DNA from: an uncultured Anaerolineales bacterium
Lineage (GTDB): Bacteria; Chloroflexota; Anaerolineae; UBA7937; B3-Chlor
DNA length: 64,000 nucleotides
Direction of reading: 5' to 3'
Assembly (NCBI GenBank): GCA_964492135.1
Contig: CAZBJW010000004.1
Location: 294 to 64,293, forward strand
Shown here: positions 2,130-20,212 of the stretch, in pieces
How positions within the stretch are numbered: position 1 is the stretch's first letter
Layout of the letters: the number at the start of each line of letters is the position of its first letter
Position numbers and translations under genes: made by a program
The notes under the pieces: generated by a model
The model's input: only the letters and a program-made list of their open reading frames with translations
What the model was told of the DNA's origin: nothing
Database searches by the model: none

Positions 2130-2281
2130 CTTAAGCGTCGCTTAAGCTCGTCATCAGTCTTTCCTTAACTCAAGTGCAAGACTATAGGCTCATGCCGAGC
2201 CTACAGATATTGTAGCATATTCTTAAGCCTTTGTCAAGTTCTTTCATGATATACTCTAGATAGACATTGAAAGGACTTAAG
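2130..2281. promoter_or_regulatory. Divergent intergenic control region with four perfect CTTAAG palindromes (candidate operators)
   Basis: CTTAAG at 2130-2135, 2141-2146, 2222-2227 and 2276-2281, plus a degenerate CTTAAC near 2164. An extended -10-like TGATATACT lies just upstream of the 2267 start. Confidence 0.35.
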
Positions 2282-2974
2282 GAAGTGCCTACAAAGAAAT
2301 TCGTTGGTGCCCGGATTCGCGAGGCCCGGGAAGCCAAGGGTTGGAGTCAACAGGAACTCGGCCAGCGTTTTGGGGTTTCTCACGCCGCGATTTCTGATCT
2401 AGAGCGCGGTGTCACTCAGAAAATAGATATCGATGATTTAGAGCGGCTCGCGGCTCTCCTTGATCGGCCACTCAATTACTTCTTGGGGCGCGAGACCGAG
2501 GAGGATAGGAGAGCCGCGGAGTTGAAACGGCTGGCGAACGAAGCGGAACGCCTGCGCCGGGAGGTCAGAGAACTTGAAAGCGACTATCTGCTGGATACTA
2601 TGGCCGTGCCTCTCGTTGGTGCCGTCCCTGGGAGGTATGCCGACTTTCGGGACCAGGCAGAAGCTGACGAGTTCCATCCGATCCGCAGGACAGCCATCCA
2701 CGCTGAGGGGGCTTATTGCCTCCAAGTGACAGACGATTCGATGATAGACCAAGGTATCTTCGATGGAGACATGGTTTTCGTCGACAAGATGGTGAGGCCG
2801 GAGGATGGGGATGTTGTGATCGCTCGCAAGGGCGGTGAGGTGGTAATCCGGGTCTTTCGAGAGGGTGACAATGGCCCCTATCTTGAGCCTGCCAACAAAG
2901 GGTATAGGAGACTCCGTTTGAAGGAGGTGGAGATCATCGGTGTGGTGGTGGAATCCAAGAGGGCGTATAGATGA
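2267..2974 (+). CDS. CI/LexA-like repressor: XRE-family HTH + S24 self-cleaving peptidase domain
   Basis: 235 aa. N-terminal HTH is GWSQQELGQRFGVSHAAISDLERG, followed by a coiled-coil linker. C-terminal S24 signature VTDDSMIDQGIFDGDMVFVD...VVIARKGGEVVIRVF (Ser/Lys dyad context). Confidence 0.85.
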   Translation: MKGLKEVPTKKFVGARIREAREAKGWSQQELGQRFGVSHAAISDLERGVTQKIDIDDLERLAALLDRPLNYFLGRETEEDRRAAELKRLANEAERLRREVRELESDYLLDTMAVPLVGAVPGRYADFRDQAEADEFHPIRRTAIHAEGAYCLQVTDDSMIDQGIFDGDMVFVDKMVRPEDGDVVIARKGGEVVIRVFREGDNGPYLEPANKGYRRLRLKEVEIIGVVVESKRAYR

Positions 2975-3722
2975 AAGTTGATGGTTCATAGATCGTAAGC
3001 CTAGTGGTGGCGCGGTCCTGTATCTCTCAAGCGTGATCAAAGGTGGTTGGTCGCGTAGGAGGTACTCGGAAGATCAACAACTGATCCACCGATCATGCAT
3101 GGTCTGTTAGGCTCGCTGCCATTGCTGGAGTGGGTTCCTCCCAGCTCATCAGGGCCCCCTTGAGCAGCCGGACTCGCAGGGCTTGGCGAGAGAGAAGAGA
3201 GTTGTAGTAGGCATCATCTAACTCAGTATGCGACTCCAAGATCACCCTCTCTTTGGAGAAGGAAAGGGTCTTGGGCACCTACTCCTCCCCATCCTCTCCC
3301 CGACCGTCAGGTTGTTATGCTGAGCCAAGGAGGCGTTTATCTCCCTAGCACAGCCACAGGAAACCAGGCTCTCGATTATCTCCTCAAGCTCGCCAAAGAC
3401 ATCCTCTTCTTACCTCGCACCATCCTAGACGATAGAATCACTCTCCTGGGAAGTGGTACCGAAGTCTATAGACATCCCATACGATCTCCCCAAACGGTTG
3501 GTCGTGGAGAACAAAAGGCCTCGGCGTCTCCGCGAGGCCATCGATGAGCGCCCTCCATAGCCAGGCTCTCCATCACCCCGGCAGAAAGCGCTCCCTCACC
3601 TCGATTCCCCTACCAACCCGCTCTTCCTTCCCCGTAACTGGGTTTTGCTTGGTGGGCACCTTACGCCGAGTCTAAGCTCTCATGGTCTCCAGCCACTACC
3701 CTCCTGGGGAGATACTCCCCCA

Positions 3723-4163
3723 TCATAGACGCTGGCATCGGGCCTGCATCAAAAGTTCGGGGACCTGGAAGTGATCGGCCATCTCCGTGAGATCCATCCG
3801 TTGAGCGAGGCAGACCCTCAGCTCGCCCTCGAGCACCAGGAGATGGAAGGCGAACTCGCGAGCCTCCCTCCCCTGGGAGAGGGTTCGCTGAAGGTCGGTC
3901 TGGTTCAAGCAGAAGAGCTGATTGCCGGCATGCAAGAAGTGATCTCCCAAGACATGGCCCATGAGCTCTCGGACATATCTGGTATCTGTGATGGAATTTT
4001 TGACGGCAACGTGGTGTCCAACGACCATCTCTTGAACCCTGCCCTTCAGCGGAAAACGCGTCACTTTCAGATCCTCTCCCTCGAGGATCGCCTCCACGTC
4101 TACGGGAGTGGAGAGTTTATATCTCTTCCAGATAGGGGCAGCTCGTTGGGATGCCACAGACAT
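3723..4163 (-). CDS. ImmA/IrrE-like (M78-type) protein, paralog 1, with no adjacent HTH partner
   Basis: 146 aa. Segment YVRELMGHVLGDHFLHAGNQLFC...AREFAFHLLV resembles the ImmA/IrrE core, but the first His of HEXXH is Arg. Clearly paralogous, at the nucleotide level too, to 6806-7279. Confidence 0.5.
   Translation of the reverse strand: MSVASQRAAPIWKRYKLSTPVDVEAILEGEDLKVTRFPLKGRVQEMVVGHHVAVKNSITDTRYVRELMGHVLGDHFLHAGNQLFCLNQTDLQRTLSQGREAREFAFHLLVLEGELRVCLAQRMDLTEMADHFQVPELLMQARCQRL
3741..4163. repeat. Diverged duplicate A of the ImmA-like gene segment
   Basis: Aligns base by base with 6856-7279. Long identical runs include ggacctggaagtgatcggccatctccgtgag and ggtcggtctggttcaagcagaagagctgattgccggcatgcaagaagtgat. 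Weaker similarity continues at 3480-3550 versus 6590-6660. Confidence 0.8.
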
Positions 4164-4317
4164 GGGATACTCGATCCCCCCTGGCCGGCCCTGACCCCAA
4201 CCGCTGCCACCTGCCAGTCACGTCGCTGCCCGGTCTGGACAGTTTTGTGGCTAACATGCCCCGCGGCCTGCAAGCCGAACTGGCCGACTACGACGAGGGG
4301 CAAGGTTGGATCGTCCT

Positions 4318-4915: not shown

Positions 4916-5284
4916 TCAAGCCAGCTCCATGGTGAGGGGAATGCCCTCCTGGGCCACGTTCTCGTAGAGGCTGAAGCGTTCTCGCTCCATCCGCTGCCAG
5001 CGCTCTTGACCAATAACCCGGGGGGCGATGAGAACGCCATATTCCAGCGATACATCGGAGGCTACATTGCTGACGGCATGCCGAAAACGCCAATCGTCCT
5101 CATCTACGATGAGCAGGATGTCTATGTCGGACTCCGAATGGCTGTCGCCACGGGCCTTAGAACCAAAGAGAATGGCTTGAAAGACGCGACCCGGATAGTG
5201 TGCCCACAACCTGGCTAGAAAACCCTCGATCGCTTCCCGTTCCTTTGACTGGAGCAGTTCAACAAGTCGTGGATTCACAGCCAT
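4916..5284 (-). CDS. Nucleotidyltransferase (MNT-type antitoxin of a HEPN/MNT pair)
   Basis: 122 aa with the minimal nucleotidyltransferase motif LFGSKARGDSHSESDIDILLIV. Overlaps the upstream HEPN gene by 10 nt. Confidence 0.85.
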   Translation of the reverse strand: MAVNPRLVELLQSKEREAIEGFLARLWAHYPGRVFQAILFGSKARGDSHSESDIDILLIVDEDDWRFRHAVSNVASDVSLEYGVLIAPRVIGQERWQRMERERFSLYENVAQEGIPLTMELA

Positions 5285-5685
5285 TCCTTCTCCTTGAGAT
5301 ACGCTTCCACCCGGCTCACAAAACGCCGAGAGTCGTTGAGGTCCTCTTTGGCCTGATCAGCAGTTGTCGTCTCCTTGATTTCGTAATCGCCAAGGTGGCG
5401 ATCGTCGATCACCCGGCCGTAGATGCGGCTATACTCGGCCTCAATCAGGCCTGGCTTCACAAACCGCTCGCGAAAGGCGCTGATCGCCCCGCTGTGCTTA
5501 CTGCGGGCCAGCCTCTGGGTAGACAGCATGGCATTGGCTGCGTAGAAGATGGCATAGTAGGCTCGGTTGACAGCCGAGGCGTAGAAGCCGTCATTCAGAT
5601 TGCGCGCGGCCACCAGAAGCATCTGGTGAGCGCGATCCACGTAAAGCGCCACTTCACGGCCCCGGGCAAGAGGCTCTTCAGACAT
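5275..5685 (-). CDS. HEPN domain protein (toxin partner of MNT)
   Basis: 136 aa, all-helical. HEPN-like segments are NRAYYAIFYAANAML and IDDRHLGDYE. Operon overlap with the MNT gene. Confidence 0.75.
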   Translation of the reverse strand: MSEEPLARGREVALYVDRAHQMLLVAARNLNDGFYASAVNRAYYAIFYAANAMLSTQRLARSKHSGAISAFRERFVKPGLIEAEYSRIYGRVIDDRHLGDYEIKETTTADQAKEDLNDSRRFVSRVEAYLKEKEWL

Positions 5686-6805
5686 TGATTATCGCTCCCC
5701 ACCACCCTCGATGAGAGTATACAGTAGTTTGAGGAGAAGGACAAGTGGAAAGGGGCAGGGAGGTTGTGTTCACCGATCGGTTCCTGAGGCTCACCTCTGG
5801 GTCGACCGACGATTGATTCTAGCCTTATCTTCCCTTCTGGCCGGGGTGGAAGGCAGTCTGGCCACCAGTTTCAAAGGGGGAAGCTCCTCAGCGACGAGGG
5901 AGTAGGACCGGCACCGGTCGCGACTCCTCCCCTGGCCTGCCATCTCCAGAGCAGCCAGGACAGGCTGGTACGCCTTTGGGGAGGCGTGCCAGCGCAGCCT
6001 CTGCCACTACCCCTCCCAGGCACCTGACTCTCCTACAAAGAGAGCTTACACCTACGATTCACCCGTCCTGTCATCGGTTGAAATGAGCAAGCTGCCCCCC
6101 TACCGAAGCGGCTCGATCGCCTCGCAGACCAACAGATCTATTATTCAAGCACCCCTCTCTCTTTGAGGAGGGTGGATAGAGGGAGTTGCGTAAGGGGATC
6201 GGGTTAGGGGCTTCTTTTGGCCCTCAGGTGCGCCAGTTGAAACTGTGCTTCATGGCTTCGAAAATAGCCGCAGTTTAGCCGCTAGGTCCAGACGGACCAT
6301 AGTCGCTCGTGGCGAGACAAAGTAGGTCGGTCATCGCCGTCCGACAGGTGAGTGCGGCAAATTTACGTCGTAAAAGGAATATATGGGCTCGTGGCGCAGC
6401 CGTTGGGAGGGCAGTTAGCAGAGGAGAGCTGCCGATGGGTTCTATCGAGCCCGGCTCGGTGCGAAATCATAGGTGTTCGGAAGACCACGACGCGGTCTCG
6501 CCAACGCGCGCGGGTGTTGCTTTTCCGTTCGTCCGGCGCATTTCTTCCCCTTGATACCTAACTCCCCTCCCTGCCCAGCCTTGTCGAGGGTTATGATCTC
6601 CCTAAACCGTTGCTCGTGGAGAACAAGAGACCTCGCCATCTCGGTGAGGTGATGGATCAACGCATCTCCTGGGGCCGGGCTCCTGGGGAGCCAAGGCGGC
6701 CGGGGCGCCTCTGGGGGAGGCCCCTACCAGCATCAGCGGTTCTTTCTGTGACTGCGCCTTTGCTGATGATGGCATGATGAATCGGCGCTTCGATGGTCTC
6801 CTGGT

Positions 6806-7279
6806 TCACCTTCCTTGCCATGCTACGCTGCTTCCCATGGATAGGGTCTCGCATCGGGCCTGCATGAAGAGTGCGGGGACCTGGAAGTGATCGGCCATCT
6901 CCGTGAGTCCCATCCGTTGAGCGAGGCATGCTCTCATCTCCTCCTCAGGCACCAGGAGATGAAAGGCGAACTCGCGCGCTTCCCTCTCCTGGGAGAGGGT
7001 CCGTTGAAGGTCGGTCTGGTTCAAGCAGAAGAGCTGATTGCCGGCATGCAAGAAGTGATGTCCCAAGACATGGGCCATGAGCTCTCGAATGTATCTGGTG
7101 TTGGTGATGGAGTCCTTGATGCCGATGTCACGTCCAACGATCACTTCGGGAACCCTGCCTGCGAAGGGGAAACGGGTAATTTCCAGATCCTCCCCCTCCA
7201 GGATCGGATCCAGGTCTACGGGAGTGGAGAGTTTGTATCTTTCTCCGATAGGGGCAGCTCGTTGGGATGCTCGAGACAT
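6806..7279 (-). CDS. ImmA/IrrE-like (M78-type) protein, paralog 2, downstream of an XRE regulator
   Basis: 157 aa with YIRELMAHVLGHHFLHAGNQLFC...AREFAFHLLVPEEEM. Sits directly downstream of the XRE HTH gene, the classic ImmR/ImmA arrangement. Confidence 0.6.
   Translation of the reverse strand: MSRASQRAAPIGERYKLSTPVDLDPILEGEDLEITRFPFAGRVPEVIVGRDIGIKDSITNTRYIRELMAHVLGHHFLHAGNQLFCLNQTDLQRTLSQEREAREFAFHLLVPEEEMRACLAQRMGLTEMADHFQVPALFMQARCETLSMGSSVAWQGR
6856..7279. repeat. Diverged duplicate B of the ImmA-like gene segment
   Basis: See 3741-4163. Confidence 0.8.
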
Positions 7280-7336
7280 GAGAGTGCTCGATTCCGCCCC
7301 TTTGGCGGGGCCTGGCAGGCTGAAGACCCATGCCGA

Positions 7337-7672
7337 TCAGGTAGACTCGGCCCGCTTCGACAGGACGAACTGAATGTAGTCGAAGACGGACTTCTTCTCC
7401 TCCCGGGTCATCCCTTCGATGTAGTTCATCATAACCAGGAGGCTAGGCTCCGATTTAGGGAAGGAGCCCACGATGATCTCCTCCACCGGGACACCCAAAG
7501 TGTGGGCGATGGAGAGGGCCACGTGCATATAGACGTTTTCCTTGCGGTCGGTCTCGATCTTGGAGATGAGACTTCGGTCCACCTGGGCCCTATCGCCCAG
7601 CTCGTCCTGGGTCCAGCCGTCGATTTCATCCCTCAGATACCGGACCCTTTCGCCGTCGATCTCGTATTTCAT
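7337..7672 (-). CDS. XRE-family HTH transcriptional regulator (ImmR-like)
   Basis: Start chosen at the internal ATG (7672), which has GGGGAGAG upstream. The product MKYEIDGERVRYLRDEIDGWTQDELGDRAQVDRSLISKIETDRK is a canonical XRE HTH. The longer ORF reaching 7813 would run across the promoter region. Confidence 0.8.
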   Translation of the reverse strand: MKYEIDGERVRYLRDEIDGWTQDELGDRAQVDRSLISKIETDRKENVYMHVALSIAHTLGVPVEEIIVGSFPKSEPSLLVMMNYIEGMTREEKKSVFDYIQFVLSKRAEST

Positions 7673-7687
7673 CTCTCCCCTGATGCA

Positions 7688-7716
7688 AGGATACCACATT
7701 TTGTGCCGCTTGTCAA
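7688..7716 (-). promoter_or_regulatory. Candidate sigma-70 promoter for the XRE/ImmA operon
   Basis: On the minus strand: TTGACA (7716-7711), 17 nt spacer, TGgTATCCT (-10 at 7693-7688). The -35 sits inside the palindrome CTTGT-TG-ACAAG. Confidence 0.45.
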
Positions 7717-7768
7717 CAAGACGTCGCTGTAATGGAGGGAATAGGCTGACTTTTAAGGTAAAAAGGGC

Positions 7769-7797
7769 TTGACAGATTAGCACATTCGTGCTATAAT
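7769..7797 (+). promoter_or_regulatory. Perfect consensus sigma-70 promoter (TTGACA-17-TATAAT with TGn extension)
   Basis: TTGACA at 7769-7774, 17 nt spacer ending in TGC, TATAAT at 7792-7797. Back to back with the minus-strand promoter. Reads into the ATG at 7820. Confidence 0.6.
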
Positions 7798-7819
7798 TGT
7801 GATGCTCTTCCACGAGACC

Positions 7820-8052
7820 ATGAACAGAAAAGACGAGATCCTTGAATTCATACGTGAGTTCCGAAACGCCATGGGCTATGCCCCCAGCTTCAGGGAGATC
7901 GTAGTTGGAACCTCGGTGGCCTCCACTCGACGGTCCACCGATATCTGGTGAGGTTGGAGGAGGACGGGCTCATCCGCCGGGCCAAGGAGACCGCTCGGTC
8001 CATCATATCCCTGGATGGGCAGGGGGCGTCTTCTTTTTGGCTCAGGATGTGA
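7820..8052 (+). pseudogene. LexA-N-terminal-type winged-helix repressor gene, split by a frameshift
   Basis: Frame 1 gives MNRKDEILEFIREFRNAMGYAPSFREI..., stopping at 7949-7951. The +2 frame continues LGGLHSTVHRYLVRLEEDGLIRRAKETARSIISLDGQG..., stopping at 8050-8052. Joined, the two pieces reproduce the LexA DNA-binding domain pattern. Confidence 0.5.
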
Positions 8053-8154
8053 CTCTCGTCCATAAAGGAGACGAAGCCAGAGCTTGTCATGGTAGAGCGG
8101 ACGTGTCGGAGCATGCTAGAGGAGTTCGATATCTTCTCTAGTTAGGAGGCGAGA

Positions 8155-10845
8155 GTGACCTTCGCAGATATCCAGGGGAGCAGATTGAACACTGAGGAGG
8201 ATCTACTCTTGGAAATCACCCCACCTCGCGACAACGAGCGGGATGCTGCAGCGGTGGAGGATATGCTGGCTGCCCTCTCGTTGAGCGAGCCCTTTTCCCT
8301 GGAAATCGCGGGCGAGGCGGGAAGGAAGCGCTTCCTGGCCAGGGGCTCAGCGCGGGCCATCGAGCATCTCCGGTCGCGCCTGGCGGGGATCTACCCTCAC
8401 GCTGGTTTGGAGGTGGTGAACCCCGCTCGGGAGCCCCGTCGGGACCCGGCCCGACCACGTCCAGGGGAGCGGGCTCTGACGATGGAACTCTATCTCCGGA
8501 CGGGTCCTCACCTCCCCATAAAGACCTATACCACCTACCAGGACGAAAGAGTTCGGGGCTCGGATCCACTCCTGGAAGTCCTCTCAGCATTGGGCGCTCG
8601 AGGACGAGCCCTGACTCAGTTGATCCTTAGACCGGCGCCAGACAACTGGTCGGAGAGGTACCTCGACCTGGCTCGCCAGCGCCATTGGCAGGAGCGGAAA
8701 GCCTCTCCTCGGGGGCAGGCCGCGGTGGGGATCTTCCTTCTAATGGTATTCTGGGCCCTGTTTCTCTTCTTGAGAGCCTTCTTCTGGTGGCTGGAGGGGC
8801 TGAGAGGCCATGCACTTCTGGCGGGGATGGCTCTCTTCCTGGGAGAGGTGGCCTTGTTCTATCCCCTGCGGTCTCTGACCCGAGAAGATGATCCCCAGAT
8901 CGTGCGGGAGAAGGTCCACCTGCCCGCCTTCGAGACCTGGCTACGGATCGCCACCTTCACGGAAGAGGTGGTGGAGTTGGAAGAGAGGATGTGGGACATT
9001 GTCTCAGCGTACAGGCTCTACAACCTGCCAGCTGGGAACGGCTTCCTGGCCAGAAAGGTGGCCTTCGACCCCACTGACATAGGTACAGACCCCCTGGCGA
9101 TCGATCTTCCCCTCTTGGGGAGGAATATCAGGTCCTGGTGGGCGAGAAAGCCAATCCTCAACGTCAGGGAGTTGGCCAGCCTGTGGCACCTGCCCCTGGG
9201 AGAGGTTGAGGTGCAGGGGCTGAGGCGTGCCCCCGCCCGAGTGGTTCTCCCTGTAACGGAGGTATCGGGGGAGGGGATCCTCTTGGGCCACTCGGTCCAT
9301 CAGGGCCGGCGAGTGGAGGTGCGGCTCCCCTTCGAGATCCTCCATCACAACATCTTCTTGGTGGGGAAGACCCAGCGGGGGAAGTCTAACCTGATGCAGC
9401 TCCTGGCGGAGGCGGCCTTGGCCGCGGGCGACCGGGCGGTGGTGGTGATCGATCCCCACGTGGACCTCGTTCGCTCACTGCAAGCTCGCATCCCACCCGG
9501 CCACGAGGAGCGGGTGATACTCATCGACCTCTTCGATCAAGACTCCCCGGTAGGGATCAACCTTCTGGAGTACCAGCAAGAGAGCCCCATCGACCGGGAC
9601 AAGGTGGTGGCAGACATCATCGACAGCTTCTCCGACATCTGGGTCCGCTTCTGGGGTCCTCGCATGGAGATCTACCTGAGGTGGGCGCTCCTGACCCTGG
9701 CCGAACATAACCGAACCGCAAAGCGGCAGATGACCATCCTGGAGGTCAACCTCCTTCTATCGGATGAGAGGTTCCGTGGGGATATCCTCCGCCAGATCAG
9801 GGATCCGGAGATCCACCGCTGGTGGCGGGAGGAGTACGAACCCCTCAGATTGAGACATTCCCGCTTCATGATGGAGGTCATCTCTCCCGTAAAGACCAAA
9901 ATCGACCGCTTCGTGGCCTCCAGGATCGCCAAGAACGTCCTGGGACAGCCTCGGTCAAGTGCAGACATCGGAAGGGCGATCCAAGACCGGAAGATCGTAC
10001 TGGTGAACCTGGCCTCAGGTCTGGTGGGGAAGGAGACGGCTTCTCTTCTGGGCTCGGCCATCTTGGATATTCTAGCTTCGGTCTTCCGCTATCAGGCGCA
10101 AGAGGAGAGACGGCGGCGAGCCCTGGCCACCGTGATCGTGGACGAGATCCAGGCCATCGAAGGATCGGGGAGGAAGTATAGGGAGTTCTTGCAGGAGCTT
10201 TCCAAGTTCGGCGCCAACGTGGTCCTGGGCACCCAGAGCCTGGCCATGATCGAGACGATGGAACCCGGTCTGAAAGGGGCCATCTTCGCCAATTCGAGCA
10301 CTCTGTTCCTCTTCGAGTCCAGTGCCGAGGACGCCCGCTATCTGGTTCATGAGTTGGATCGACCCGTCTCGGTAACCGATCTGACGAACCTGGGCCCCTA
10401 CCGTTGTTATGTCAAGACCATGATCAGCGGGGAGCGGATCCCGGTCTTCACCCTGGAGAGTCTCCCACCTCAACCAGGTTCTTGGGAGCAGGCGAAGCGA
10501 GTGCGAATGCTCTCCCAGAAGCACTATGGGCGCGATAGGGCTGAGGTGGAGGCGGAGAGAACGACCAGCATCCAAGAGCGCTACTACCCTGTGACCCTCC
10601 CCGTGGAGAAGGTGGTTGCCCAGGCGCCAGCCGGGTCACGCCCCTACCCCAACAATACACCCAGGGAGAAGACAGGAGCAGACGGCGATGCTGCGGAAGC
10701 GGCGGGCGAGGCGGTAGAGACTCCTCATCACGTAGGGGGCGCCTCCGCGGAGGCGGCTCTCGATGAGGAGCTCCGGCGTCTTAGGCGCAACCGGGCACGT
10801 CGCCAGCGAAGCAAGAAGAGCACGAATGATCGTTTCTCAGAATAG
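8155..10845 (+). CDS. Membrane-anchored P-loop ATPase of the TraD/TraG/VirD4 coupling-protein / HerA-FtsK type
   Basis: 896 aa. It has a soluble N-terminal region of about 190 aa and two TM helices (AAVGIFLLMVFWALFLFLRAFFWWL, ALLAGMALFLGEVALFYPL). Walker A is FLVGKTQRGKSNLMQ followed by VVVIDPHVDL. Walker B is ATVIVDEIQAI. Basic/acidic C-terminal tail. Confidence 0.6.
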   Translation: MTFADIQGSRLNTEEDLLLEITPPRDNERDAAAVEDMLAALSLSEPFSLEIAGEAGRKRFLARGSARAIEHLRSRLAGIYPHAGLEVVNPAREPRRDPARPRPGERALTMELYLRTGPHLPIKTYTTYQDERVRGSDPLLEVLSALGARGRALTQLILRPAPDNWSERYLDLARQRHWQERKASPRGQAAVGIFLLMVFWALFLFLRAFFWWLEGLRGHALLAGMALFLGEVALFYPLRSLTREDDPQIVREKVHLPAFETWLRIATFTEEVVELEERMWDIVSAYRLYNLPAGNGFLARKVAFDPTDIGTDPLAIDLPLLGRNIRSWWARKPILNVRELASLWHLPLGEVEVQGLRRAPARVVLPVTEVSGEGILLGHSVHQGRRVEVRLPFEILHHNIFLVGKTQRGKSNLMQLLAEAALAAGDRAVVVIDPHVDLVRSLQARIPPGHEERVILIDLFDQDSPVGINLLEYQQESPIDRDKVVADIIDSFSDIWVRFWGPRMEIYLRWALLTLAEHNRTAKRQMTILEVNLLLSDERFRGDILRQIRDPEIHRWWREEYEPLRLRHSRFMMEVISPVKTKIDRFVASRIAKNVLGQPRSSADIGRAIQDRKIVLVNLASGLVGKETASLLGSAILDILASVFRYQAQEERRRRALATVIVDEIQAIEGSGRKYREFLQELSKFGANVVLGTQSLAMIETMEPGLKGAIFANSSTLFLFESSAEDARYLVHELDRPVSVTDLTNLGPYRCYVKTMISGERIPVFTLESLPPQPGSWEQAKRVRMLSQKHYGRDRAEVEAERTTSIQERYYPVTLPVEKVVAQAPAGSRPYPNNTPREKTGADGDAAEAAGEAVETPHHVGGASAEAALDEELRRLRRNRARRQRSKKSTNDRFSE

Positions 10846-10892
10846 AGGAGGTCAAGGTCGAAGAGCATACCATCCGCAAGATCGAACTGGAG

Positions 10893-12734
10893 ATGCTGCA
10901 CTGGCTGATCAGCTATCCTCTGATGAGCGCTTACCAACTCGCGGTCGGGTTGGGTCTGGACTGGGGCTCAGTCAAGGGGTACCTGAGACACCTGGCGGAT
11001 GAACTGGGTTTCCTCGAACGGCTGTCATGTGCGGACCCCGGGCTTCGAAAAGGGGTGCAAGCCTACATCCCCACGGACGAGGGCATCAGGGCTCTCGCTC
11101 AGGAGCAGGGGCTATCCAATGTCCAGTGCGCCCGCCAGCACGGCCTGACTAAGGGCCGTCTCTATAAGATAATCAATAGCCTCCCCTTCTACTATGGATT
11201 GCGCACCTTCGTGGTTCGGCTGGGCGAAACGGCCCGCCGCCACGGGCAGATGGTGGCTCTCTTCGAGGAGGAGCCGCTGTTTCGCTTCATCAGGGGCGGC
11301 CGCGAGCGCCGTTTCCGCCCTGATGCCTTCTCGGTCTATCGGGCTGGAAATGCGGCCTATCCCTTCATCCTCTTGTGGGACGCGGGGTACGGTCGGGTCA
11401 GCCACTTCCGTGGAAGGGTGGATAGGCTCCATGACCTCAGGGAGGCGGATCGTTATCCCTTCCCGGCGAAATATCGCCGCTTTCCCGCCGTGGCTGTGGT
11501 GACTACCGATCGCTGGCGGCTTCTCGAGTGGCAGCGGATGGTGCGTCTTTCAGCCATTCGACGCCGGTCGGCGGAGGTGCAGCTCTATCTCACCCTGAGG
11601 CGTGACCTGCGCCCCGGGCCCGAGGGAGAAGAGTGGAACTTCTTCCGTCCCGTCTGGGTCGATGGAGCAGGGCAGAGGGTGCCCTTCTTGAATGGGGCTC
11701 CCTCTTTCCCTTGGGAGGAGTACCGCACTTTCCGGGAGGAGCGTCTCTCCCCCGGGGAGGCCCCTCGCCGGTCTCGTCGCAAGATCCTGGGCGATCCTCT
11801 CCTGGAGAAGGCTCAAGCGCTGAGGAACCTCTTCCCACGGGCAGGGGAAGAGGAGATCGCCCTGGTCAACCTGGCCCTGCGCCGCAGGGAGAAGGAGGTG
11901 CTCCTTTGGATCGGGGACCACCCGCTTCTCTCAGTGAGACTGCTGGCTCTCTTCATGGGGAACCGAGAGAGCACTATCCAGAGAGACATCCCCCGCCTGG
12001 CCAAGCTGGGCCTGATAGAACAGGCTGAGCCTCCAGATGGTTTCCAGGGCGAGGCCATGTACCTCTTGACCGATCAGGGTGTGAGGTGGCTGGTGAAGCG
12101 GCGGCGGGAAAAGCACCGAGCCTTCGTCCTACGCCACTGGCGACGGACGGTGAGGTGGATGCTGGTCCACCTTCGGCATACGCGAGCCCTCTACGAGTGC
12201 ATGGCCGCCTTCGCAGCCCCTGATCTCACAACCGGCCCTCCTGGTTCGTGCGGGTTGCACCTCTGGGAGAGCGAGTTTCGCACACACCGACGGTACGAGT
12301 ACCGGGGACTCAACCGGGTCTTCACCCCGGATGCGTATGGGGTTTTTCGACTTGGAGATCGTGGCTATCGCTTCTTCCTGGAGGTGGACAGGGATACCGT
12401 GCATGGGCGTTTACTGCAGAGAAAAGTAGAGAGTTACTATATCTTCCGGCGTAGCCGGGAGTTCGTGGAGCATGGCTTTGCTTTCCCTTCGGTCTTGGTG
12501 GTGACGACTACCCTGGGCCGGGCGAGAGGCATCCTCTCCACCTTCCAGCGAGTTGCCGGCTGGTTGGGTGTAGGGGTTCTCCCCCTCTACGTGACGACGC
12601 AGCAACTGGTCGCCGCCGAGGGCCCTCTGGCTCCCATCTGGCTTACACCGGCATCCAAGAACCCCGTCCACTGGTTGCCCATGGACAACCCTCCCGCTGA
12701 AGGGGAGGAAGACACCCGTGAGCCGCGTCGATGA
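10893..12734 (+). CDS. Tandem replication-relaxation (Replic_Relax-like) protein: two wHTH + nuclease-like repeats
   Basis: 613 aa. Repeat 1: LEMLHWLISYPLMSAYQLAVGL...FRPDAFSVYR...FILLWDAGYG. Repeat 2: EKEVLLWIGDHPLLSVRLLALFMG...FTPDAYGVFR...FFLEVDRDTVHGRLLQRKVESYY. The start is uncertain: the reading frame is open from 10830 and GAGGAGG lies at 10845-10851, but there is no canonical start before 10893. Confidence 0.6.
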   Translation: MLHWLISYPLMSAYQLAVGLGLDWGSVKGYLRHLADELGFLERLSCADPGLRKGVQAYIPTDEGIRALAQEQGLSNVQCARQHGLTKGRLYKIINSLPFYYGLRTFVVRLGETARRHGQMVALFEEEPLFRFIRGGRERRFRPDAFSVYRAGNAAYPFILLWDAGYGRVSHFRGRVDRLHDLREADRYPFPAKYRRFPAVAVVTTDRWRLLEWQRMVRLSAIRRRSAEVQLYLTLRRDLRPGPEGEEWNFFRPVWVDGAGQRVPFLNGAPSFPWEEYRTFREERLSPGEAPRRSRRKILGDPLLEKAQALRNLFPRAGEEEIALVNLALRRREKEVLLWIGDHPLLSVRLLALFMGNRESTIQRDIPRLAKLGLIEQAEPPDGFQGEAMYLLTDQGVRWLVKRRREKHRAFVLRHWRRTVRWMLVHLRHTRALYECMAAFAAPDLTTGPPGSCGLHLWESEFRTHRRYEYRGLNRVFTPDAYGVFRLGDRGYRFFLEVDRDTVHGRLLQRKVESYYIFRRSREFVEHGFAFPSVLVVTTTLGRARGILSTFQRVAGWLGVGVLPLYVTTQQLVAAEGPLAPIWLTPASKNPVHWLPMDNPPAEGEEDTREPRR

Positions 12735-13113
12735 TCCATCTTTCAGTATCCTCCGTTCATTCACCTTACTCATGGAGGCCAAATCGCCGGATCTGTATCT
12801 TCACTGCTTGAGGGTGGCCTCTCTGGCCGTTGCTCCAAGGCAGGCGCTCGATCTCTCGGAGAGCGCCCAGCTGGAACTGGAGGTGGGCGCGGGGCTTCAT
12901 GATCTGGGCAAGCTGGCCCTTCCCGACGCCATCATGGGCAAGGGGGAGAGCTTGGGCGAAGCGGAGATGGCTGCCATTCGGACACATCCTGAGTTGGGAG
13001 AGCGCATTCTCTCCCCGCTTCCAGTGGCGGACGAGGGGCGGAAGGTGGTCCACTGCCACCACGAGCGCATGAGTGGGGAGGGTTACCCCAGACGGCTTTG
13101 TCTTCACCGCTAA
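12718..13113 (+). pseudogene. HD-GYP domain fragment (truncated at both ends)
   Basis: HCLRVASLAV...GLHDLGKLALPDAIMGKGESLGEAEMAAIRTHPELGERIL...HCHHERMSGEGYP. There is no sensor or receiver part upstream, and the sequence ends 7 codons after GYP. Confidence 0.6.
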
Positions 13114-13480
13114 AACGCCGAACGAGATCACCCATGAGCACCACCTGACTAACGCTCTGAGGGCCTTATATCAATTTCTGAGAGTGATGAGTCATCTTGG
13201 GGGGAGACAAGCTGGGACCTATTCTCATGCAGCTCCCTCCTACTGTGCACTTTGGCTACAGAAACCCACTGGAGGGATTCCTTGCGGGGTTGCCGCGCGA
13301 TCAGGAGTTCGCTGTCGAATTTCGAGATGACTTTGGGTCCAAGAGGATGTCTTTGAACTGCTGCGGCATCACGGCGTTGCCTGGTGCATCACAGATACCG
13401 ACCTGATACCGGCCATCCCCGAGATCACCGCTGACTTCACCTACATACGTTGGATCAGGGATCGTCGCGCGCGAGTAGGA
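13085..13480 (+). pseudogene. DUF72-family gene remnant, N-terminally truncated and frameshifted
   Basis: Pieces in three frames: PDGFVFTAKTPNEITHEHHL...LYQFL / DKLGPILMQLPPTV...EFAVEFRD / EDVFELLRHHGVAWCITDTD...ITADFTYIRW. These are classic DUF72 motifs. Confidence 0.6.
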
Positions 13481-13821
13481 TCCCGTCGTGGGAAGATCGA
13501 TCCTGATCTCACACCTGGTTGCCCCTTTCAATCGCGGGGTGGTAAAATATACCATGCCAAGGCCACTAGATGGAACGGGCACCAGGGGCGCCGAGCGTAG
13601 CTCTCCCCAAGTCTGTCTGGCCAATTGTAACCTGGGGATGGCCTTTTCTCTAGACTTCGAGGTGTGCAAAGGGATGCCTCGTTCCTCACTTGCCTGCCGT
13701 TGGTTCAAGTGACTCGCTATAACGAGAGGACGTGACCTAGGCACCTTGGTGGGGGGTCACACCTGCGGGTAGTGTCGCTTATCCTGACCTGCCGCGCCCA
13801 TAACAACCGCACCTTCAAACC

Positions 13822-13849
13822 TTGACCTTGGGACGGGTTCAGCTATACT
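13822..13849 (+). promoter_or_regulatory. Candidate promoter of the vapB-like gene
   Basis: TTGACC (13822-13827), 16 nt spacer, TATACT (13844-13849). Followed by a small inverted repeat, GGCTA-n5-TAGCC. Confidence 0.4.
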
Positions 13850-13890
13850 CTACATTGGTGGCTAGACTATAGCCGCAGAAGACGCACGAA

Positions 13891-14172
13891 GTGGCAAGCG
13901 TTAGGAAATTGTCATCCAAGGGGCAAGTAGTCGTCCCTGAGGATCTAGGCCGCCAGTATGGGATTGATTCGGGCCATCTCCTGATGGTAGAAGACAGTGA
14001 AGGTGGCATCCGAGTCTTGCCCTTGCCCAAAGATCCCTTGAGAGCGATCGCTGGCCGTCTTGCCGGGAAGCCAGGACTAGAGGTTCTTAAGGGCGAACGG
14101 GAGCGGGAGCTAAAGGCAGACGAGGAGAGAACCCAGCGCCTAGCAGGGAAGCGAGAGTCAACTACCCCATAG
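13891..14172 (+). CDS. AbrB/SpoVT-type antitoxin (VapB-like)
   Basis: 93 aa, GTG start. The N-terminus VRKLSSKGQVVVPEDLGRQYGIDSGHLLMVEDSEGGIRVLP is a swapped-hairpin AbrB fold signature. Confidence 0.7.
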   Translation: MASVRKLSSKGQVVVPEDLGRQYGIDSGHLLMVEDSEGGIRVLPLPKDPLRAIAGRLAGKPGLEVLKGERERELKADEERTQRLAGKRESTTP

Positions 14173-14493
14173 ATAAATCCAGGGGCTTGTCCCTGGCGCC
14201 ACAGGAGGTCCTGTGTCCGAGACGTATGGCTGGTTGACAACAGCCCGACGGAGAATATCCGCCGCGAGTTACAGGCTAAGCCTGACGCCGAGGGTTTTAC
14301 CCGCACAGCGATTCGTGTGCAGAACCCGTTACCTCCGCTTGTTAAGGTGCAAAAGCCGTTTCTCCGCCGTGCGGAGTGCCTTGCGACCCTACAAACAGTA
14401 TAGGACAAATTTGCTAACTTTGCAAAAAAGGAGAATCGCGGCGCTCCTCCCCACACCTGAAAGAGGGGGTATCCGCGCCCGAAAGGATTTCCG

Positions 14494-14870
14494 ATGAGAG
14501 AGGTGTTGCACGGCAGCTCCCTGGTGGCCCTCATCCACAAACAGGCTGGCTATACTATGTCTACCGCCTGATTGAACGGGCCCAGGAGGGAGACGCGGAT
14601 ATCTACTTCTCTGAAATTGACTATGGTGAGATCCTCTACGTTGTGGCCAGAACGGGGGGAACAAAGGAACTTGAATATCACAGACGAGTCCTTCCAGCGC
14701 TTCCAATCACCCTTGTGCCGGTAGATCGTGCGCTGATTGAGCGAGGTGCAGAGATCAAAGCGTTGCCAGGCGGTGCTTTCCTAGAGGCGATCTGTGCTGC
14801 CCTGGCTGAGCGGCTTGATGCTACTGTGGTGACTGGGGACCAAGGGTGTCAAAAAACGAGACCGGGTTGA
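14494..14870 (+). pseudogene. PIN-domain toxin (VapC-like), frameshifted and separated from its antitoxin
   Basis: MREVLHGSSLVALIHKQAGY runs to a stop at about 14569. The -1 frame continues YRLIERAQEGDADIYFSEIDYGEILYVV...LPITLVPVD...AICAALAERLDATVVTGDQG. The first catalytic Asp position reads His/Gly. Confidence 0.6.
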
Positions 14871-18673: not shown

Positions 18674-18725
18674 TCTGACATACGCTCCATTTGCCCTTTA
18701 CAGAGAGGCCCTTAGGGTAAGTCTA

Positions 18726-18850
18726 GCAACCCTGTGGCTAGAGCCTACTACCTGAAGAAGATCGCCGAGGGCAAGAGCAAGGGCTCTGCCTCTCCAAGCA
18801 ACTGGACACAAAGAGCCAATCCTTGAAAACATACTTTCATATTGACATAG
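18726..18850 (+). mobile_element. IS110-family transposase C-terminal remnant
   Basis: NPVARAYYLKKIAEGKSKGSA, then after a frame change LCLSKQL..., resembles the conserved IS110 C-terminal block (YY..K.AEGK...A). No intact transposase ORF. Confidence 0.4.
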
Positions 18851-19428
18851 GGCGCCTGGTAGATGAGTTGAATCATGATTGGGGCCTACGCCCCAACAGA
18901 TGATCCGCCTTTCTCTCGGGCCTGCATATCGGCGCAGGCCTCAACTAGCCTCAAGAGATCACTTAGGCTCTCTACCATGCCCGTCCTGGTCGACTTGGGC
19001 CAGGGAGGGAGATTCTACTCACTTGACTTCGTATGTTGAACCCAGTATGAACCATCTGGTAGAGCCCAAGGACTCCCCCTAAAACCCTGAAGACTTCGTC
19101 CTGAGCTCAGTCCGAAGGAAGTGGTCACGATGTCTTGGCTCACCTACGAATCTCTTCTTGCCTCCCATCATCTTATACGTAAAGTATCCCTGTGGGAGAC
19201 GATACAATCACTCTCCTAGAGGGTGGTACCGAGGTCTCTGAATATTACGGGTATCGGCTTGCAAAGCGATAGTCAGGGTGAGGGGACGCCAATCTGCTAG
19301 GCCAGATCAGATCGTCATAGGCAGACGCTTCACACCTGCAAGCAACCTGACTCCAATTGAATAAAAGAGCACGAAGGATTGGCTTCCATCAGGAAAGCCG
19401 TTTTTCTCGGGAGCCTGATTCAAACCCC

Positions 19429-20149: not shown

Positions 20150-20212
20150 ATACGATAATCTTTCCCGGCGGCTCCACAGTGAGGGAGCGAGAAGATTTGA
20201 GGCGGTCGACCA

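What the first reader, a model, noticed from the sequence alone, without database searches (positions are those of the whole stretch)
7337..12734. Minimal mobile-element core: a divergent repressor switch feeds a lone membrane-anchored DNA-translocase-like ATPase plus a replication-relaxation protein, with no T4SS, canonical relaxase or integrase
Two back-to-back promoters lie at 7688-7797, one of them a perfect TTGACA-17-TATAAT. They separate an XRE+ImmA operon from a rightward operon made of a LexA-type wHTH gene, an 896-aa two-TM P-loop ATPase (Walker A GKTQRGKS, VVVIDPH, Walker B VIVDEIQ; TraD/VirD4/HerA-FtsK-like) and a 613-aa tandem Replic_Relax-like protein. I see no mating-pore genes, no MOB relaxase and no integrase within 10 kb. 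Single-translocase DNA transfer is known in actinomycete TraB plasmids and in Thermus TdtA transjugation, so this could be a comparably minimal transfer or maintenance module, or the stranded core of a decayed element. The pairing and its control logic are not something I can assign to a described element type.
Basis: partly seen in the sequence, partly recalled or inferred. Interest (0 to 1): 0.65.

Follow-up and report, generated by a model that had tools for sequence, protein, structure and literature searches.

The report
Decayed conjugative element missing its mating machinery
This is the leftover of an integrative conjugative element in a sediment Chloroflexota genome: a roughly 26-kb deletion removed the pilus and secretion genes and placed the element's repressor switch directly beside its coupling ATPase and relaxase, so it is a decayed known kind of element and not a new minimal transfer system.

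Summary
The pairing is not a minimal design.

- **Relatives.** In every close relative (50-92% identical ATPase) the same ATPase and Replic_Relax genes end a roughly 40-kb element. Its order is serine recombinase, ImmA, XRE, divergent promoters, LexA-type wHTH, Tad-pilus genes, VirB6-like/VirB4-like/M23 type IV secretion genes, coupling ATPase, Replic_Relax, HD, ParA, ParB.
- **Window.** Bases 6710-8111 match the switch end of that element and 8115-13099 match its far end. About 26.2 kb between them is gone.
- **Further decay.** The wHTH gene has two 1-base deletions. The relaxase lost its ancestral start codon. The HD gene is cut at about 13106. Recombinase, ParA and ParB are absent.
- **Assembly check.** Contigs from two independent metagenome runs span both junctions at chromosomal depth.
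- **Identities.** The ATPase models as a TrwB/VirD4-type coupling protein. Replic_Relax (PF13814) is the MOBC relaxase family, so "no canonical relaxase" is wrong.
- **Context.** Coupling-protein + MOBC pairs without a secretion system recur in Dehalococcoidia, about half with a serine recombinase. That is a described mobilizable-element layout.

Verdict: an ordinary decayed element. Whether the intact coupling protein and relaxase still act in trans is open.

The parts
6604..6774 (+). Remnant of a small (86-aa) gene. In intact relatives this gene lies between the serine recombinase and ImmA. This is the leftmost trace of the element; no recombinase follows.
   Evidence: tblastn with the L091 86-aa product: 46% identity, E 4e-10. 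blastn homology to L091/L092 starts at 6710/6621.
6806..7279 (-). ImmA-like metalloprotease (Peptidase_M78), 157 aa, intact ORF.
   Evidence: Pfam PF06114, 47.6 bits. 85% identical to the ImmA gene of the intact element L091.
7337..7672 (-). XRE-family (ImmR-like) repressor, 111 aa, intact ORF.
   Evidence: Pfam HTH_19/HTH_31/HTH_3. 86% identical over its full length to the L091 XRE.
7688..7797 (.). Divergent promoter region of the element. Leftward TTGACA-17-TATCCT at 7716-7688; rightward perfect TTGACA-17-TATAAT at 7769-7797.
   Evidence: Consensus scan. Both hexamer pairs are invariant in the intact relatives L091 and L092.
7802..8111 (+). LexA_DNA_bind wHTH gene, now a pseudogene with two 1-base deletions (about 7925 and about 8030). 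From the ATG at 7820 the reading frame stops at 7951.
   Evidence: tblastn gives three segments in three frames. Nucleotide alignment with L091/L092 shows the two deletions. Intact homologues are 106-112 aa. The repaired reading scores 47 bits to PF01726.
8105..8116 (.). Deletion joint. About 26.2 kb carrying the Tad-pilus and type IV secretion genes is missing relative to intact relatives.
   Evidence: Window 8111 matches L091 10312 (record position 87587). Window 8115 matches L001 9961 (record position 113771 on the same contig). Logan contigs of runs X1 and X2 span 7689-8334 and 7689-8348 with 0 differences at chromosomal depth.
8113..8145 (+). Last 10 codons (MLEEFDIFSS*) of the 92-aa gene that precedes the coupling protein in intact elements.
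   Evidence: Alignment with L001 (...ELEEYEILSS*).
8155..10845 (+). VirD4/TrwB-type coupling protein (T4CP), 896 aa, intact ORF. N-terminal DUF8128-type domain, two transmembrane helices, then the ATPase with an all-alpha domain.
   Evidence: Pfam DUF87 and TrwB_AAD_bind. PDB profile search gives TrwB as best hit, E 1.4e-7. AlphaFold model has pLDDT 78.8. Foldseek to TrwB gives TM 0.61-0.66 normalised to the target. 92% identical to P0001 of an intact element.
10893..12734 (+). Tandem Replic_Relax (MOBC-family) relaxase, 613 aa. The N copy is degenerate and the C copy keeps the candidate catalytic residues. The ancestral start ATG is now ATA at 10842-10844, and a new ATG lies at 10893.
   Evidence: PF13814, 73.4 bits. 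Halves 27% identical, E 2e-9. P479, D480, E497, D499 and K511 are invariant. Start-codon change shown. 84% identical to relaxases of intact relatives.
12718..13106 (+). 5' part of the element's HD-domain gene. It is truncated: homology to intact elements stops at about 13106. This is the right end of the remnant; ParA and ParB are missing.
   Evidence: Pfam HD_5 covers positions 7-118 of 170. blastn homology ends at 13099 and the alignment confirms it. X1/X2 contigs span 12253-14185 and 11846-14185 with 0 differences.
3480..4193 (-). Second, partial copy of the same switch end: ImmA' at 3723-4163 plus a trace of the small gene. It has no XRE.
   Evidence: Direct repeats 3480-4024 against 6592-7140, 79-86% identity. 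Pfam Peptidase_M78. blastn to L091/L092 gives 80-83%.

Best explanation
Window 6604-13106 is a non-autonomous remnant of an integrative conjugative element (ICE) family found in Chloroflexota.

In the intact element, an ImmR-like XRE repressor and an ImmA-like protease are transcribed leftward, towards a serine recombinase. A strong divergent promoter drives one long rightward gene array: LexA-type wHTH, Tad-like pilus genes, VirB6-like/VirB4-like/M23 type IV secretion genes, VirD4-type coupling protein, MOBC relaxase, HD protein, ParA and ParB.

In this genome an illegitimate deletion of about 26.2 kb joined the 3' end of the wHTH gene to the last 30 bases of the gene that precedes the coupling protein. 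That removed all pilus and pore genes. Further decay:
- it broke the wHTH gene twice;
- it destroyed the relaxase's original start codon;
- it cut the HD gene;
- it removed the recombinase, ParA and ParB.

Shown here: the homology, the breakpoints, the pseudogenisation, and the reality of the junctions in reads-derived contigs.

Inferred from established knowledge of ICEBs1-type switches, VirD4 coupling proteins and MOBC relaxases: if the XRE repressor is lifted, the perfect promoter now transcribes the coupling protein and relaxase directly. Without a pore, an integrase or a known oriT, the remnant cannot excise or transfer itself.
For: - **Gene order in relatives.** All close relatives have the same order, with VirB4-like, TrbL_3, M23 and TadE genes directly upstream of the ATPase and relaxase: P0001 92%, P0002 90%, P0003 89%, P0004 87%, P0005 60% identical.
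- **Switch belongs to the same element.** The wHTH/XRE/ImmA switch and a serine recombinase lie on the same contigs, 26 kb upstream of the coupling protein.
- **Homology blocks.** blastn gives window 6710-8111 = L091 8874-10312 (82%) and window 8115-13099 = L001 9961-14993 (88.5%). Nothing else of these loci is in the window.
- **Joint detail.** The end of the wHTH gene and the last 10 codons of the 92-aa gene abut at 8105-8116.
- **Independent assemblies.** Two runs have error-free contigs across both junctions at the depth of the flanking chromosome.
- **Decay marks.** Two frameshifts in the wHTH gene, ATG to ATA at the relaxase start, and a truncated HD gene followed by an internal DUF72 fragment.
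- **No other machinery in the window.** The rest is polysaccharide biosynthesis with no integrase or secretion genes.
- **Coupling-protein identity.**
- **Relaxase identity.**, with PMC5357655 and PMC12857230.
- **Phylogenetic position.** In the coupling-protein tree the window sequence nests inside the clade of intact elements, as sister to L001. Its loss of the secretion genes is therefore recent and private.
Against: - The coupling protein and relaxase ORFs (4.5 kb) carry no frameshift or stop.
- They keep every family-invariant residue.
- Their lineage-specific pN/pS is 0.11 and 0.20, the same range as intact relatives.
- A new in-frame ATG appeared exactly where the relaxase needed one.

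These points fit either a very recent deletion or continued selection for a trans-acting role. 'Dead remnant' may therefore be too strong for these two genes.

Limits of the evidence:
- I saw contigs, not raw reads, across the junctions.
- The ends and oriT of the intact element were not defined.
Confidence: 0.85

Rival explanations
1. Functional hitcher. The remnant is retained because its coupling protein and MOBC relaxase still work. They would use the pore of a related intact element in the same cell to mobilise DNA from a retained oriT. Because there is no recombinase, transfer would be Hfr-like and carry adjacent chromosome, here a polysaccharide locus. Alternatively, the retained XRE/ImmA pair gives immunity against related elements.
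For: - Both ORFs are intact and keep all invariant residues.
- Lineage-specific pN/pS is 0.11 and 0.20, no higher than in intact relatives.
- The relaxase start codon was replaced by a new ATG 17 codons downstream. Its 60%-identical relative also starts about there.
- Both indels in about 5.7 kb of element coding sequence fall in the 0.3-kb wHTH gene. This is my own arithmetic: about 0.3% by chance if indels were uniform, though one lies in a T-run.
- Related element copies are present in the same metagenome (variant contigs).
- Blocks of 97-100% identity to L001 inside the coupling-protein gene show recent exchange with other copies.
- Coupling-protein + MOBC pairs without a secretion system form multi-species clades in Dehalococcoidia. 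This layout is a described mobilizable-element class (PMC5357655).
Against: - There is no recombinase, so it is not an integrative mobilizable element in the defined sense.
- No oriT was identified. It may lie in the deleted or truncated parts.
- The new relaxase start has GGAG directly abutting the ATG, which is poor spacing.
- Gene conversion from intact copies or a recent deletion would also explain the intact ORFs without selection.
- No expression data exist.
- Co-residence of an intact element in the same cell was not shown.
Confidence: 0.2
2. This is a self-sufficient minimal transfer or maintenance module in which a single membrane-anchored translocase plus a replication-relaxation protein moves DNA without a secretion system, as in actinomycete TraB plasmids or Thermus TdtA.
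For: - No pore genes lie in the window.
- Both ORFs are intact.
- A strong promoter lies upstream.
Against: - The ATPase is TrwB/VirD4-like, not FtsK-like.
- All five closest relatives place the pair behind a VirB4-type secretion cluster.
- The promoter-to-ATPase adjacency is a deletion scar with truncated genes on both sides.
- VirD4-type coupling proteins are known to work only by docking a relaxosome onto a VirB4-containing channel (established knowledge; PMC12857230).
Confidence: 0.02
3. Assembly artefact. The junctions are chimeric joins between an element contig and chromosomal contigs in a metagenome assembly.
For: - The window comes from a metagenome.
- The region has several paralogous copies in the sample.
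- Contigs fragment inside 8.3-12 kb.
Against: - Logan contigs from two separate runs cross each junction with 0 differences, at the same depth as the flanks: about 40x and 87x.
- Microhomology at the left joint is at most about 5 bases, too short for a k=31 graph mis-join.
- The wHTH frameshifts and the diverged sequence (82-88% to relatives) are specific to this copy.
Confidence: 0.03
4. Exaptation. The ATPase plus nuclease-fold pair under an ImmA/XRE (CapP/CapH-like) switch now serves as a defence or stress-induced system.
For: - ImmA and XRE match the CapP/CapH regulator models.
- The ATPase weakly matches mad8 and HerA models.
- A HEPN/MNT pair lies nearby.
Against: - The ATPase matches are generic P-loop similarity (47 and 18 bits).
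- The relaxase matches no defence model.
- The same switch controls a conjugation operon in intact relatives.
- No other genome shows this fused arrangement.
Confidence: 0.03

Closest known systems
ICEBs1-type integrative conjugative elements (ImmR/ImmA switch divergent from the conjugation operon)
   Same: An XRE repressor and an M78 protease are co-transcribed towards the recombinase, divergent from a strong promoter that heads the whole conjugation gene array. This layout is conserved in the intact relatives.
   Different: - The recombinase is a large serine recombinase, not a tyrosine integrase.
- The relaxase is MOBC, not MOBT.
- The coupling protein is VirD4-like.
- The first rightward gene is a LexA-type wHTH.
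- Intact relatives carry a Tad-like pilus cluster.
- In the window the recombinase, pilus and pore genes are all missing.
VirD4/TrwB-family type IV coupling proteins (e.g. TrwB of R388)
   Same: N-terminal membrane anchor, Walker A and B motifs, and a TrwB-like nucleotide-binding plus all-alpha domain fold (TM 0.61-0.66 to TrwB). It is encoded next to a relaxase and, in relatives, next to a VirB4-like gene.
   Different: About 190 extra N-terminal residues (DUF8128-type domain) precede the two transmembrane helices. Sequence identity to TrwB is only 15-18%.
MOBC relaxases (TraX of pAD1, MobC of CloDF13; Pfam PF13814 Replic_Relax)
   Same: PF13814 domain at 73 bits, an N-terminal winged helix, and a position beside a coupling protein in a conjugation cluster (PMC5357655, PMC12857230).
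   Different: This one is a tandem of two wHTH + Replic_Relax units, of which only the C-terminal unit keeps the invariant D/E/D/K residues. No nicking data exist.
Integrative mobilizable elements of 'class 8' (VirD4 coupling protein + MobC relaxase + serine integrase; Coluzzi et al. 2017, PMC5357655)
   Same: A coupling protein and a MOBC relaxase side by side with no secretion system. The same compact layout, with a serine recombinase, occurs in Dehalococcoidia loci such as L075.
   Different: The window copy has no recombinase. By phylogeny it derives from a full conjugative element through a private deletion, not from one of the secretion-less lineages.
Single-translocase DNA transfer (Streptomyces TraB, Thermus TdtA)
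   Same: Only that a P-loop DNA-handling ATPase is present without pore genes in this window.
   Different: Those translocases are FtsK-like or HerA-like and act without a relaxase. This ATPase is TrwB-like, is paired with a relaxase, and belongs to a family that sits behind VirB4-type clusters.

Membership tests
VirD4/TrwB-type coupling protein (T4CP) | N-terminal transmembrane anchor | tested here: met
   Two long hydrophobic helices at residues 186-213 and 217-242 in the sequence and in the AlphaFold model.
VirD4/TrwB-type coupling protein (T4CP) | Walker A and Walker B motifs conserved across the family | tested here: met
   GKTQRGKS (T406, G409, K410) and VIVDEIQ (D663, E664) are invariant in a 20-sequence alignment.
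VirD4/TrwB-type coupling protein (T4CP) | TrwB-like fold including the all-alpha domain, rather than an FtsK, HerA or VirB4 fold | tested here: met
   Foldseek to TrwB gives TM 0.61-0.66 (normalised to the target) over about 460 columns, and 0.54 to DotL. VirB4 hits reach TM 0.3 or less, and HerA 0.50-0.53 with rmsd 18. Pfam TrwB_AAD_bind scores 25.4 bits against a 20.5 cut-off. The PDB profile search ranks TrwB first.
VirD4/TrwB-type coupling protein (T4CP) | Encoded together with a relaxase and a separate VirB4-type ATPase | tested here: met
   Met in relatives: 54 of 68 family loci with 10 kb of upstream sequence, and all five close relatives. In the window itself VirB4 is absent.
VirD4/TrwB-type coupling protein (T4CP) | Hexameric DNA-dependent ATPase that docks the relaxosome to the channel | not testable with these tools
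   Needs biochemistry. A hexamer prediction was not run.
MOBC relaxase (PF13814) | Replic_Relax domain above the Pfam cut-off | tested here: met
   73.4 bits against a 25.3 cut-off, residues 337-526. PF13814 is equated with the CONJscan MobC profile in PMC5357655.
MOBC relaxase (PF13814) | Winged-helix DNA-binding domain N-terminal to the nuclease core | tested here: met
   Weak MarR_2 hit. Foldseek matches to MarR-family wHTH regulators at probability 1.0. TraX has such a domain (PMC12857230).
MOBC relaxase (PF13814) | PD-(D/E)XK-type catalytic core | tested here: inconclusive
   P479, D480, E497, D499 and K511 are invariant in 8 sequences down to 28% identity. The model has pLDDT 68, and Foldseek did not match a nuclease core. 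The fold assignment rests on PMC3424549.
MOBC relaxase (PF13814) | Site-specific nicking at a cognate oriT | not testable with these tools
   No oriT was recognised. The repeat search found nothing convincing.
Integrative conjugative element (autonomous) | Own mating-pore (VirB4-type secretion) genes | tested here: not met
   tblastn of all secretion and pilus proteins of L001, L002, L005, L009 and L091 finds none in the 64-kb window. They are present in all close relatives.
Integrative conjugative element (autonomous) | Own integrase or recombinase, and attachment sites | tested here: not met
   No serine recombinase hit. No integrase domain in any large ORF of the window. Relatives have a 517-aa serine recombinase 1.1-1.3 kb left of ImmA.
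ICEBs1-type ImmR/ImmA switch | XRE repressor and M78 protease in one leftward unit, divergent from the promoter of the transfer genes | tested here: met
   Gene order and domains. Promoter hexamers are conserved in intact relatives.
ICEBs1-type ImmR/ImmA switch | Protease cleaves the repressor on induction | not testable with these tools
   Needs experiment.
Integrative mobilizable element, class 8 (coupling protein + MobC + serine integrase) | Serine integrase adjacent to the coupling-protein and relaxase pair | tested here: not met
   Absent from the window. Present in family loci such as L075.
Single-translocase transfer (TraB/TdtA type) | FtsK/HerA-type translocase acting without a relaxase or a secretion system in the family | tested here: not met
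   The fold is TrwB-like. A relaxase gene follows the ATPase in 77 of 80 loci, and a VirB4-type cluster precedes it in most.

The most novel reading that the evidence does not exclude
The remnant is not debris but a selected trans-acting mobilisation unit. It would be an ImmR-controlled coupling protein plus MOBC relaxase that borrows the pore of a co-resident intact element and, lacking a recombinase, drives Hfr-like transfer of the neighbouring polysaccharide-biosynthesis genes. More broadly, its parent may be an undescribed Chloroflexota conjugative-element family that combines a Tad-type pilus with a VirB4-type channel, a DUF8128-bearing coupling protein and a tandem MOBC relaxase. That family has repeatedly shed its pore genes to give mobilizable lineages.
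Probability: 0.15. Interest if true: 0.5.

Novelty: new member of a known kind. Interest (0 to 1): 0.22.

Why it matters
- **For this window.** An apparently novel 'minimal transfer module' is explained as ordinary decay of a conjugative element. It should not be counted as a new system.
- **For annotation in general.** A coupling protein and a Replic_Relax protein found alone should first be compared with relatives for a deletion scar. Replic_Relax should also be read as a MOBC relaxase.
- **Wider value, which lies outside the window.** Intact relatives define a widespread and apparently undescribed conjugative-element family in uncultured Chloroflexota. Several secretion-less offshoots of that family bear on how mobilizable elements arise from conjugative ones.

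Tried and rejected
- **Phage origin.** phrog_5156 matches the ATPase (E 6e-43) and phrog_9381 matches the relaxase. The only phage record with a match is Bacillus phage G at 21% identity. Rejected.
- **Plasmid origin.** 76 plasmid records match, all below 31% identity and covering only the ATPase half. Uninformative.
- **Integration-site clues.** No tRNA or Rfam family is present in the window.
- **oriT search.** Looked for direct or inverted repeats in non-coding parts of intact relatives and of the window. Nothing convincing.
- **Expression.** No RNA run holds the sequence.
- **Intact element in the same sample.** I tried to lay the metagenome contigs on the intact relative L001. Co-residence is therefore inferred only from variant contigs laid on the window.
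- **Source record.** Exact look-up of the window's own relaxase found no record.
- **Relaxase structure.** PDB sequence search found nothing meaningful. The fold search matched only the wHTH part.
- **Defence-system reading.** Only generic matches.
- **86-base 'skip' joint (7840 to 7927).** It comes from a paralogous copy about 85% identical that heads a 17-kb contig in X2. It is not a variant of this locus.
- **Candidate ends.** A 41-base direct repeat (3427-3467 and 19197-19237) was considered. It does not match the ends of the element in relatives. Left unexplained.


Full report
**What is in the sequence**

- An ImmA-like Peptidase_M78 gene (6806-7279, minus strand) and an XRE gene (7337-7672, minus strand) are read leftward.
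- The 147-base gap to the right holds a leftward TTGACA-17-TATCCT (7716-7688) and a perfect rightward TTGACA-17-TATAAT (7769-7797). The consensus scan finds 5 promoter-like sites in 6.9 kb, against 1.5 +/- 1.3 in shuffles.
- Rightward follow a LexA_DNA_bind winged-helix reading frame, an 896-aa P-loop ATPase (8155-10845) with the quoted motifs, and a 613-aa Replic_Relax protein (10893-12734).
- The ATPase passes the Pfam cut-offs of both DUF87 and TrwB_AAD_bind.
- The two halves of the Replic_Relax protein are 27% identical (E 2e-9), so it is a true tandem.

Three details were missed or misread.
1. The winged-helix gene is broken. From the ATG at 7820 the frame stops at 7951, and the rest of the domain continues in another frame.
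2. The HD-domain ORF that overlaps the end of the relaxase gene (12718-13113) covers only positions 7-118 of a 170-position profile.
3. Replic_Relax (PF13814) is not an orphan family. It is the Pfam domain of the MOBC relaxase superfamily, whose prototype is TraX of pAD1 (PMC5357655; PMC12857230; fold assignment in PMC3424549).

**What the relatives show**

A search of 5.8 billion proteins found the ATPase family to be common in Chloroflexota. Five close relatives are 92, 90, 89, 87 and 60% identical. I fetched the DNA around all five. In each case the ATPase and the Replic_Relax gene are the tail of one co-directional cluster:
- TadE-type pilins and several unknown genes;
- a 670-735-aa TrbL_3 (VirB6-like) protein;
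- a 600-aa AAA_10/P-loop_TraG (VirB4-like) ATPase;
- an M23 peptidase and a 92-aa gene;
- then the ATPase, Replic_Relax, an HD protein (absent in the 60%-identical relative), ParA and ParB.

A search with the repaired winged-helix protein returned intact homologues of 106-112 aa. Two of them lie on the same contigs as the close ATPase relatives. Their surroundings give the other end of the element:
- a 517-aa serine recombinase, a small gene, ImmA and XRE, all leftward;
- then the divergent promoter region;
- then the winged-helix gene, a 311-aa gene, a CpaE/ParA-like ATPase, a T2SSE (CpaF-like) ATPase, two T2SSF proteins, a small pilin-sized gene and TadE/Tad proteins.

On contig CAYLIE010000002.1 the winged-helix gene is at 87276-87596 and the coupling ATPase starts at 113811. 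The intact element is therefore about 40 kb. The ATPase and relaxase lie 26 kb downstream of the switch.

**The window is that element with its middle removed**

- blastn aligns window 6710-8111 to the switch end of the relative (L091 8874-10312, 82% identity).
- blastn aligns window 8115-13099 to the far end (L001 9961-14993, 88.5% identity).
- Nothing else from these loci is in the window at DNA or protein level.
- In the relative's coordinates the two blocks end and start at 87587 and 113771, so about 26.2 kb is missing.
- At the joint (8105-8116) the winged-helix gene runs to within 9 bases of its stop. It is followed at once by the last ten codons of the 92-aa gene (MLEEFDIFSS*, against ELEEYEILSS* in the relative). 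At most a few bases of microhomology are present.
- On the right, homology stops at about 13106 inside the HD gene. An internal fragment of a DUF72 gene follows.
- On the left, only a trace of the small gene next to ImmA remains (6604-6774). No recombinase is present.
- The promoter region, including both hexamer pairs, is conserved in the intact relatives. The switch is therefore the element's own, not something assembled here.

**Further decay**

- Against the intact relatives, the winged-helix gene has two single-base deletions, one near 7925 and one in a T-run near 8030.
- The relaxase's ancestral ATG is ATA in the window (10842-10844). Translation can start only at a new ATG at 10893, where relatives have Ile.
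- A second, partial copy of the ImmA end lies at 3480-4193.
- The rest of the window, from about 14.8 kb and especially 20-64 kb, is polysaccharide biosynthesis with no integrase or secretion gene. A Wzz/tyrosine-kinase gene lies at the left edge.

**Are the junctions real?**

Two sediment-metagenome runs hold 89% of the sampled words of this stretch. In each, a contig covers 7689-8334 or 7689-8348 with no difference. Another covers 12253-14185 or 11846-14185 with no difference. All sit at the depth of the flanking chromosome, about 40x and about 87x. Extra depth and variant contigs inside 6.8-12 kb show that related copies of the element exist in the same samples. An apparent 86-base skip at 7840 to 7927 belongs to one such paralogue, about 85% identical, which heads a 17-kb contig. 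I only had contigs, not raw reads.

**What the two proteins are**

*The ATPase.*
- A profile of the ATPase family finds TrwB as the best solved relative (E 1.4e-7).
- The AlphaFold model has mean pLDDT 78.8. It shows an N-terminal alpha/beta domain, two transmembrane helices (186-242) and the ATPase.
- Foldseek aligns about 460 columns to TrwB with TM 0.61-0.66 normalised to TrwB, and 0.54 to DotL. VirB4 chains reach only 0.3 or less, and HerA 0.5 with rmsd 18.
- With a separate VirB4-like gene in the same cluster, this is the element's VirD4-type coupling protein.

*The relaxase.*
- It has two wHTH + Replic_Relax units.
- P479, D480, E497, D499 and K511 of the C-terminal unit are invariant down to 28% identity.
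- The N-terminal unit has LLWD where the C-terminal unit has LEVD, in all relatives.
- Its model is mediocre (pLDDT 68), and Foldseek recognises only MarR-like winged helices. The nuclease fold therefore rests on the literature.

**Is a lone pair ever a working unit?**

I fetched 80 family loci from species-representative genomes and scanned them with iterated profiles.
- The relaxase follows the coupling protein in 77 of 80 loci.
- Of 68 loci with 10 kb of upstream sequence, 54 have VirB4-like and TrbL_3 genes just upstream and 14 have none.
- The 14 form three multi-species clades plus singletons in a coupling-protein tree.
- Seven of the 14 have a serine recombinase within 10 kb downstream.
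- One of them, L075, reads methylase, HNH, coupling protein, relaxase, small gene, serine recombinase. This is the compact 'VirD4 coupling protein + MobC relaxase + serine integrase' layout described for streptococcal mobilizable elements (PMC5357655).

The pairing is therefore a described element type, and it has arisen repeatedly from full conjugative elements. The window copy does not belong to those lineages. It sits inside the clade of intact elements, next to L001, and it has no recombinase.

**Dead or still useful?**

The coupling-protein and relaxase ORFs are intact.
- Changes private to the window lineage give pN/pS 0.11 and 0.20, as in the intact relatives (0.11-0.17 and 0.17-0.29).
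- The relaxase gained a replacement start codon.
- Both indels in about 5.7 kb of element coding sequence fall in the 0.3-kb winged-helix gene.

This fits either a recent deletion or continued selection. Blocks of 97-100% identity to L001 inside the coupling-protein gene (8315-8914 and 9515-10314, against 76-92% elsewhere) show recent exchange with other copies. That exchange could also keep the gene intact. No oriT was found and no expression data exist. I put about 0.2 on a trans-acting role.

**Verdict**

The 'decayed element' alternative is right, and the 'minimal transfer module of an undescribed type' is not. This is a new member of a known kind: a deletion remnant of a conjugative element. 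Interest is low for the window itself. Modest interest attaches to the parent element family and its secretion-less offshoots in Chloroflexota.

Noticed in passing
L091 1-20321 and L001 1-17000 (same contig, GCA_964383935.1 CAYLIE010000002.1); also L092 and L009: Intact parent element of about 40 kb in uncultured Chloroflexota. It carries a serine recombinase, an ImmA/XRE switch, a LexA-type wHTH, a full Tad-like pilus set (CpaE-like, CpaF-like, two TadB/C-like, TadE) joined to a VirB6-like/VirB4-like/M23 cluster, a VirD4-like coupling protein with a DUF8128 N-domain, a tandem MOBC relaxase, HD, and ParA/ParB. One full-text search found no paper describing such elements in Chloroflexi. The recombinase gene overlaps the 3' end of dnaX in L091, which suggests integration there.
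   Followed up: partly
L017, L020, L023, L027, L031, L037, L045, L054, L061, L063, L067, L072, L075, L080: Fourteen Dehalococcoidia loci have the coupling-protein and relaxase pair but no VirB4/TrbL_3 within 10 kb upstream. They form three clades plus singletons, and seven have a serine recombinase downstream. They are probably integrative mobilizable elements derived repeatedly from the conjugative family.
   Followed up: partly
window 14147-14503: A non-coding repeat of about 350 bases at about 4x the chromosomal depth in both metagenome runs, with contigs breaking at its ends. A copy 79.5% identical is inserted between two secretion-cluster genes in relative L005 (2180-2530). No Rfam match. 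Possibly a small non-autonomous mobile element.
   Followed up: partly
window 3480-4193 versus 6592-7280: Direct duplication (79-86% identity, 3.1 kb apart) of the ImmA gene and the sequence downstream of it. The left copy (ImmA' at 3723-4163, minus strand) lacks an XRE partner. It may be the relic of a second, tandemly inserted element.
   Followed up: partly
window 4916-5685 (minus strand): A HEPN (5275-5685) plus minimal nucleotidyltransferase (4916-5284) pair, the usual HEPN/MNT toxin-antitoxin layout, lying between the two ImmA copies.
   Followed up: no
window 8315-8914 and 9515-10314: Blocks of 97-100% nucleotide identity to relative L001 inside the coupling-protein gene, flanked by 76-92% identity. 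This is a mosaic pattern pointing to recent recombination between element copies from different genomes.
   Followed up: partly
window 2267-2974 (plus strand): An XRE-HTH plus Peptidase_S24 protein (CI/LexA-type self-cleaving repressor, 235 aa) between the Wzz/tyrosine-kinase gene and the element relics. Its origin, host or another mobile element, was not determined.
   Followed up: no
window 13073-13330 and 18700-20200: Gene debris around the remnant. There is an internal DUF72 fragment right after the truncated HD gene. A mostly non-coding stretch reads like the C-terminal end of an IS110-type transposase by eye (...YYLKKIAEGKSKG..., about 18740-18800). A 41-base direct repeat occurs at 3427-3467 and 19197-19237, with raised depth near 19150-19240.
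   Followed up: no
window 7792-7822: In the relatives, the annotated start of the wHTH gene (ATG at window 7805) lies only 7 bases after the -10 hexamer, and the next ATG (7820) has no Shine-Dalgarno sequence. The first gene of the transfer operon may therefore be translated from a leaderless or near-leaderless mRNA.
   Followed up: no
window 14872-64000: A very large polysaccharide-biosynthesis region: flippases, several epimerases/dehydratases, three DegT-type aminotransferases, glycosyltransferases, a Wzy-like polymerase, and a NusG-paralogue (21182-21670) ahead of the operon. GC falls to 0.47-0.49 at 15-18 kb and 39-42 kb.
   Followed up: no
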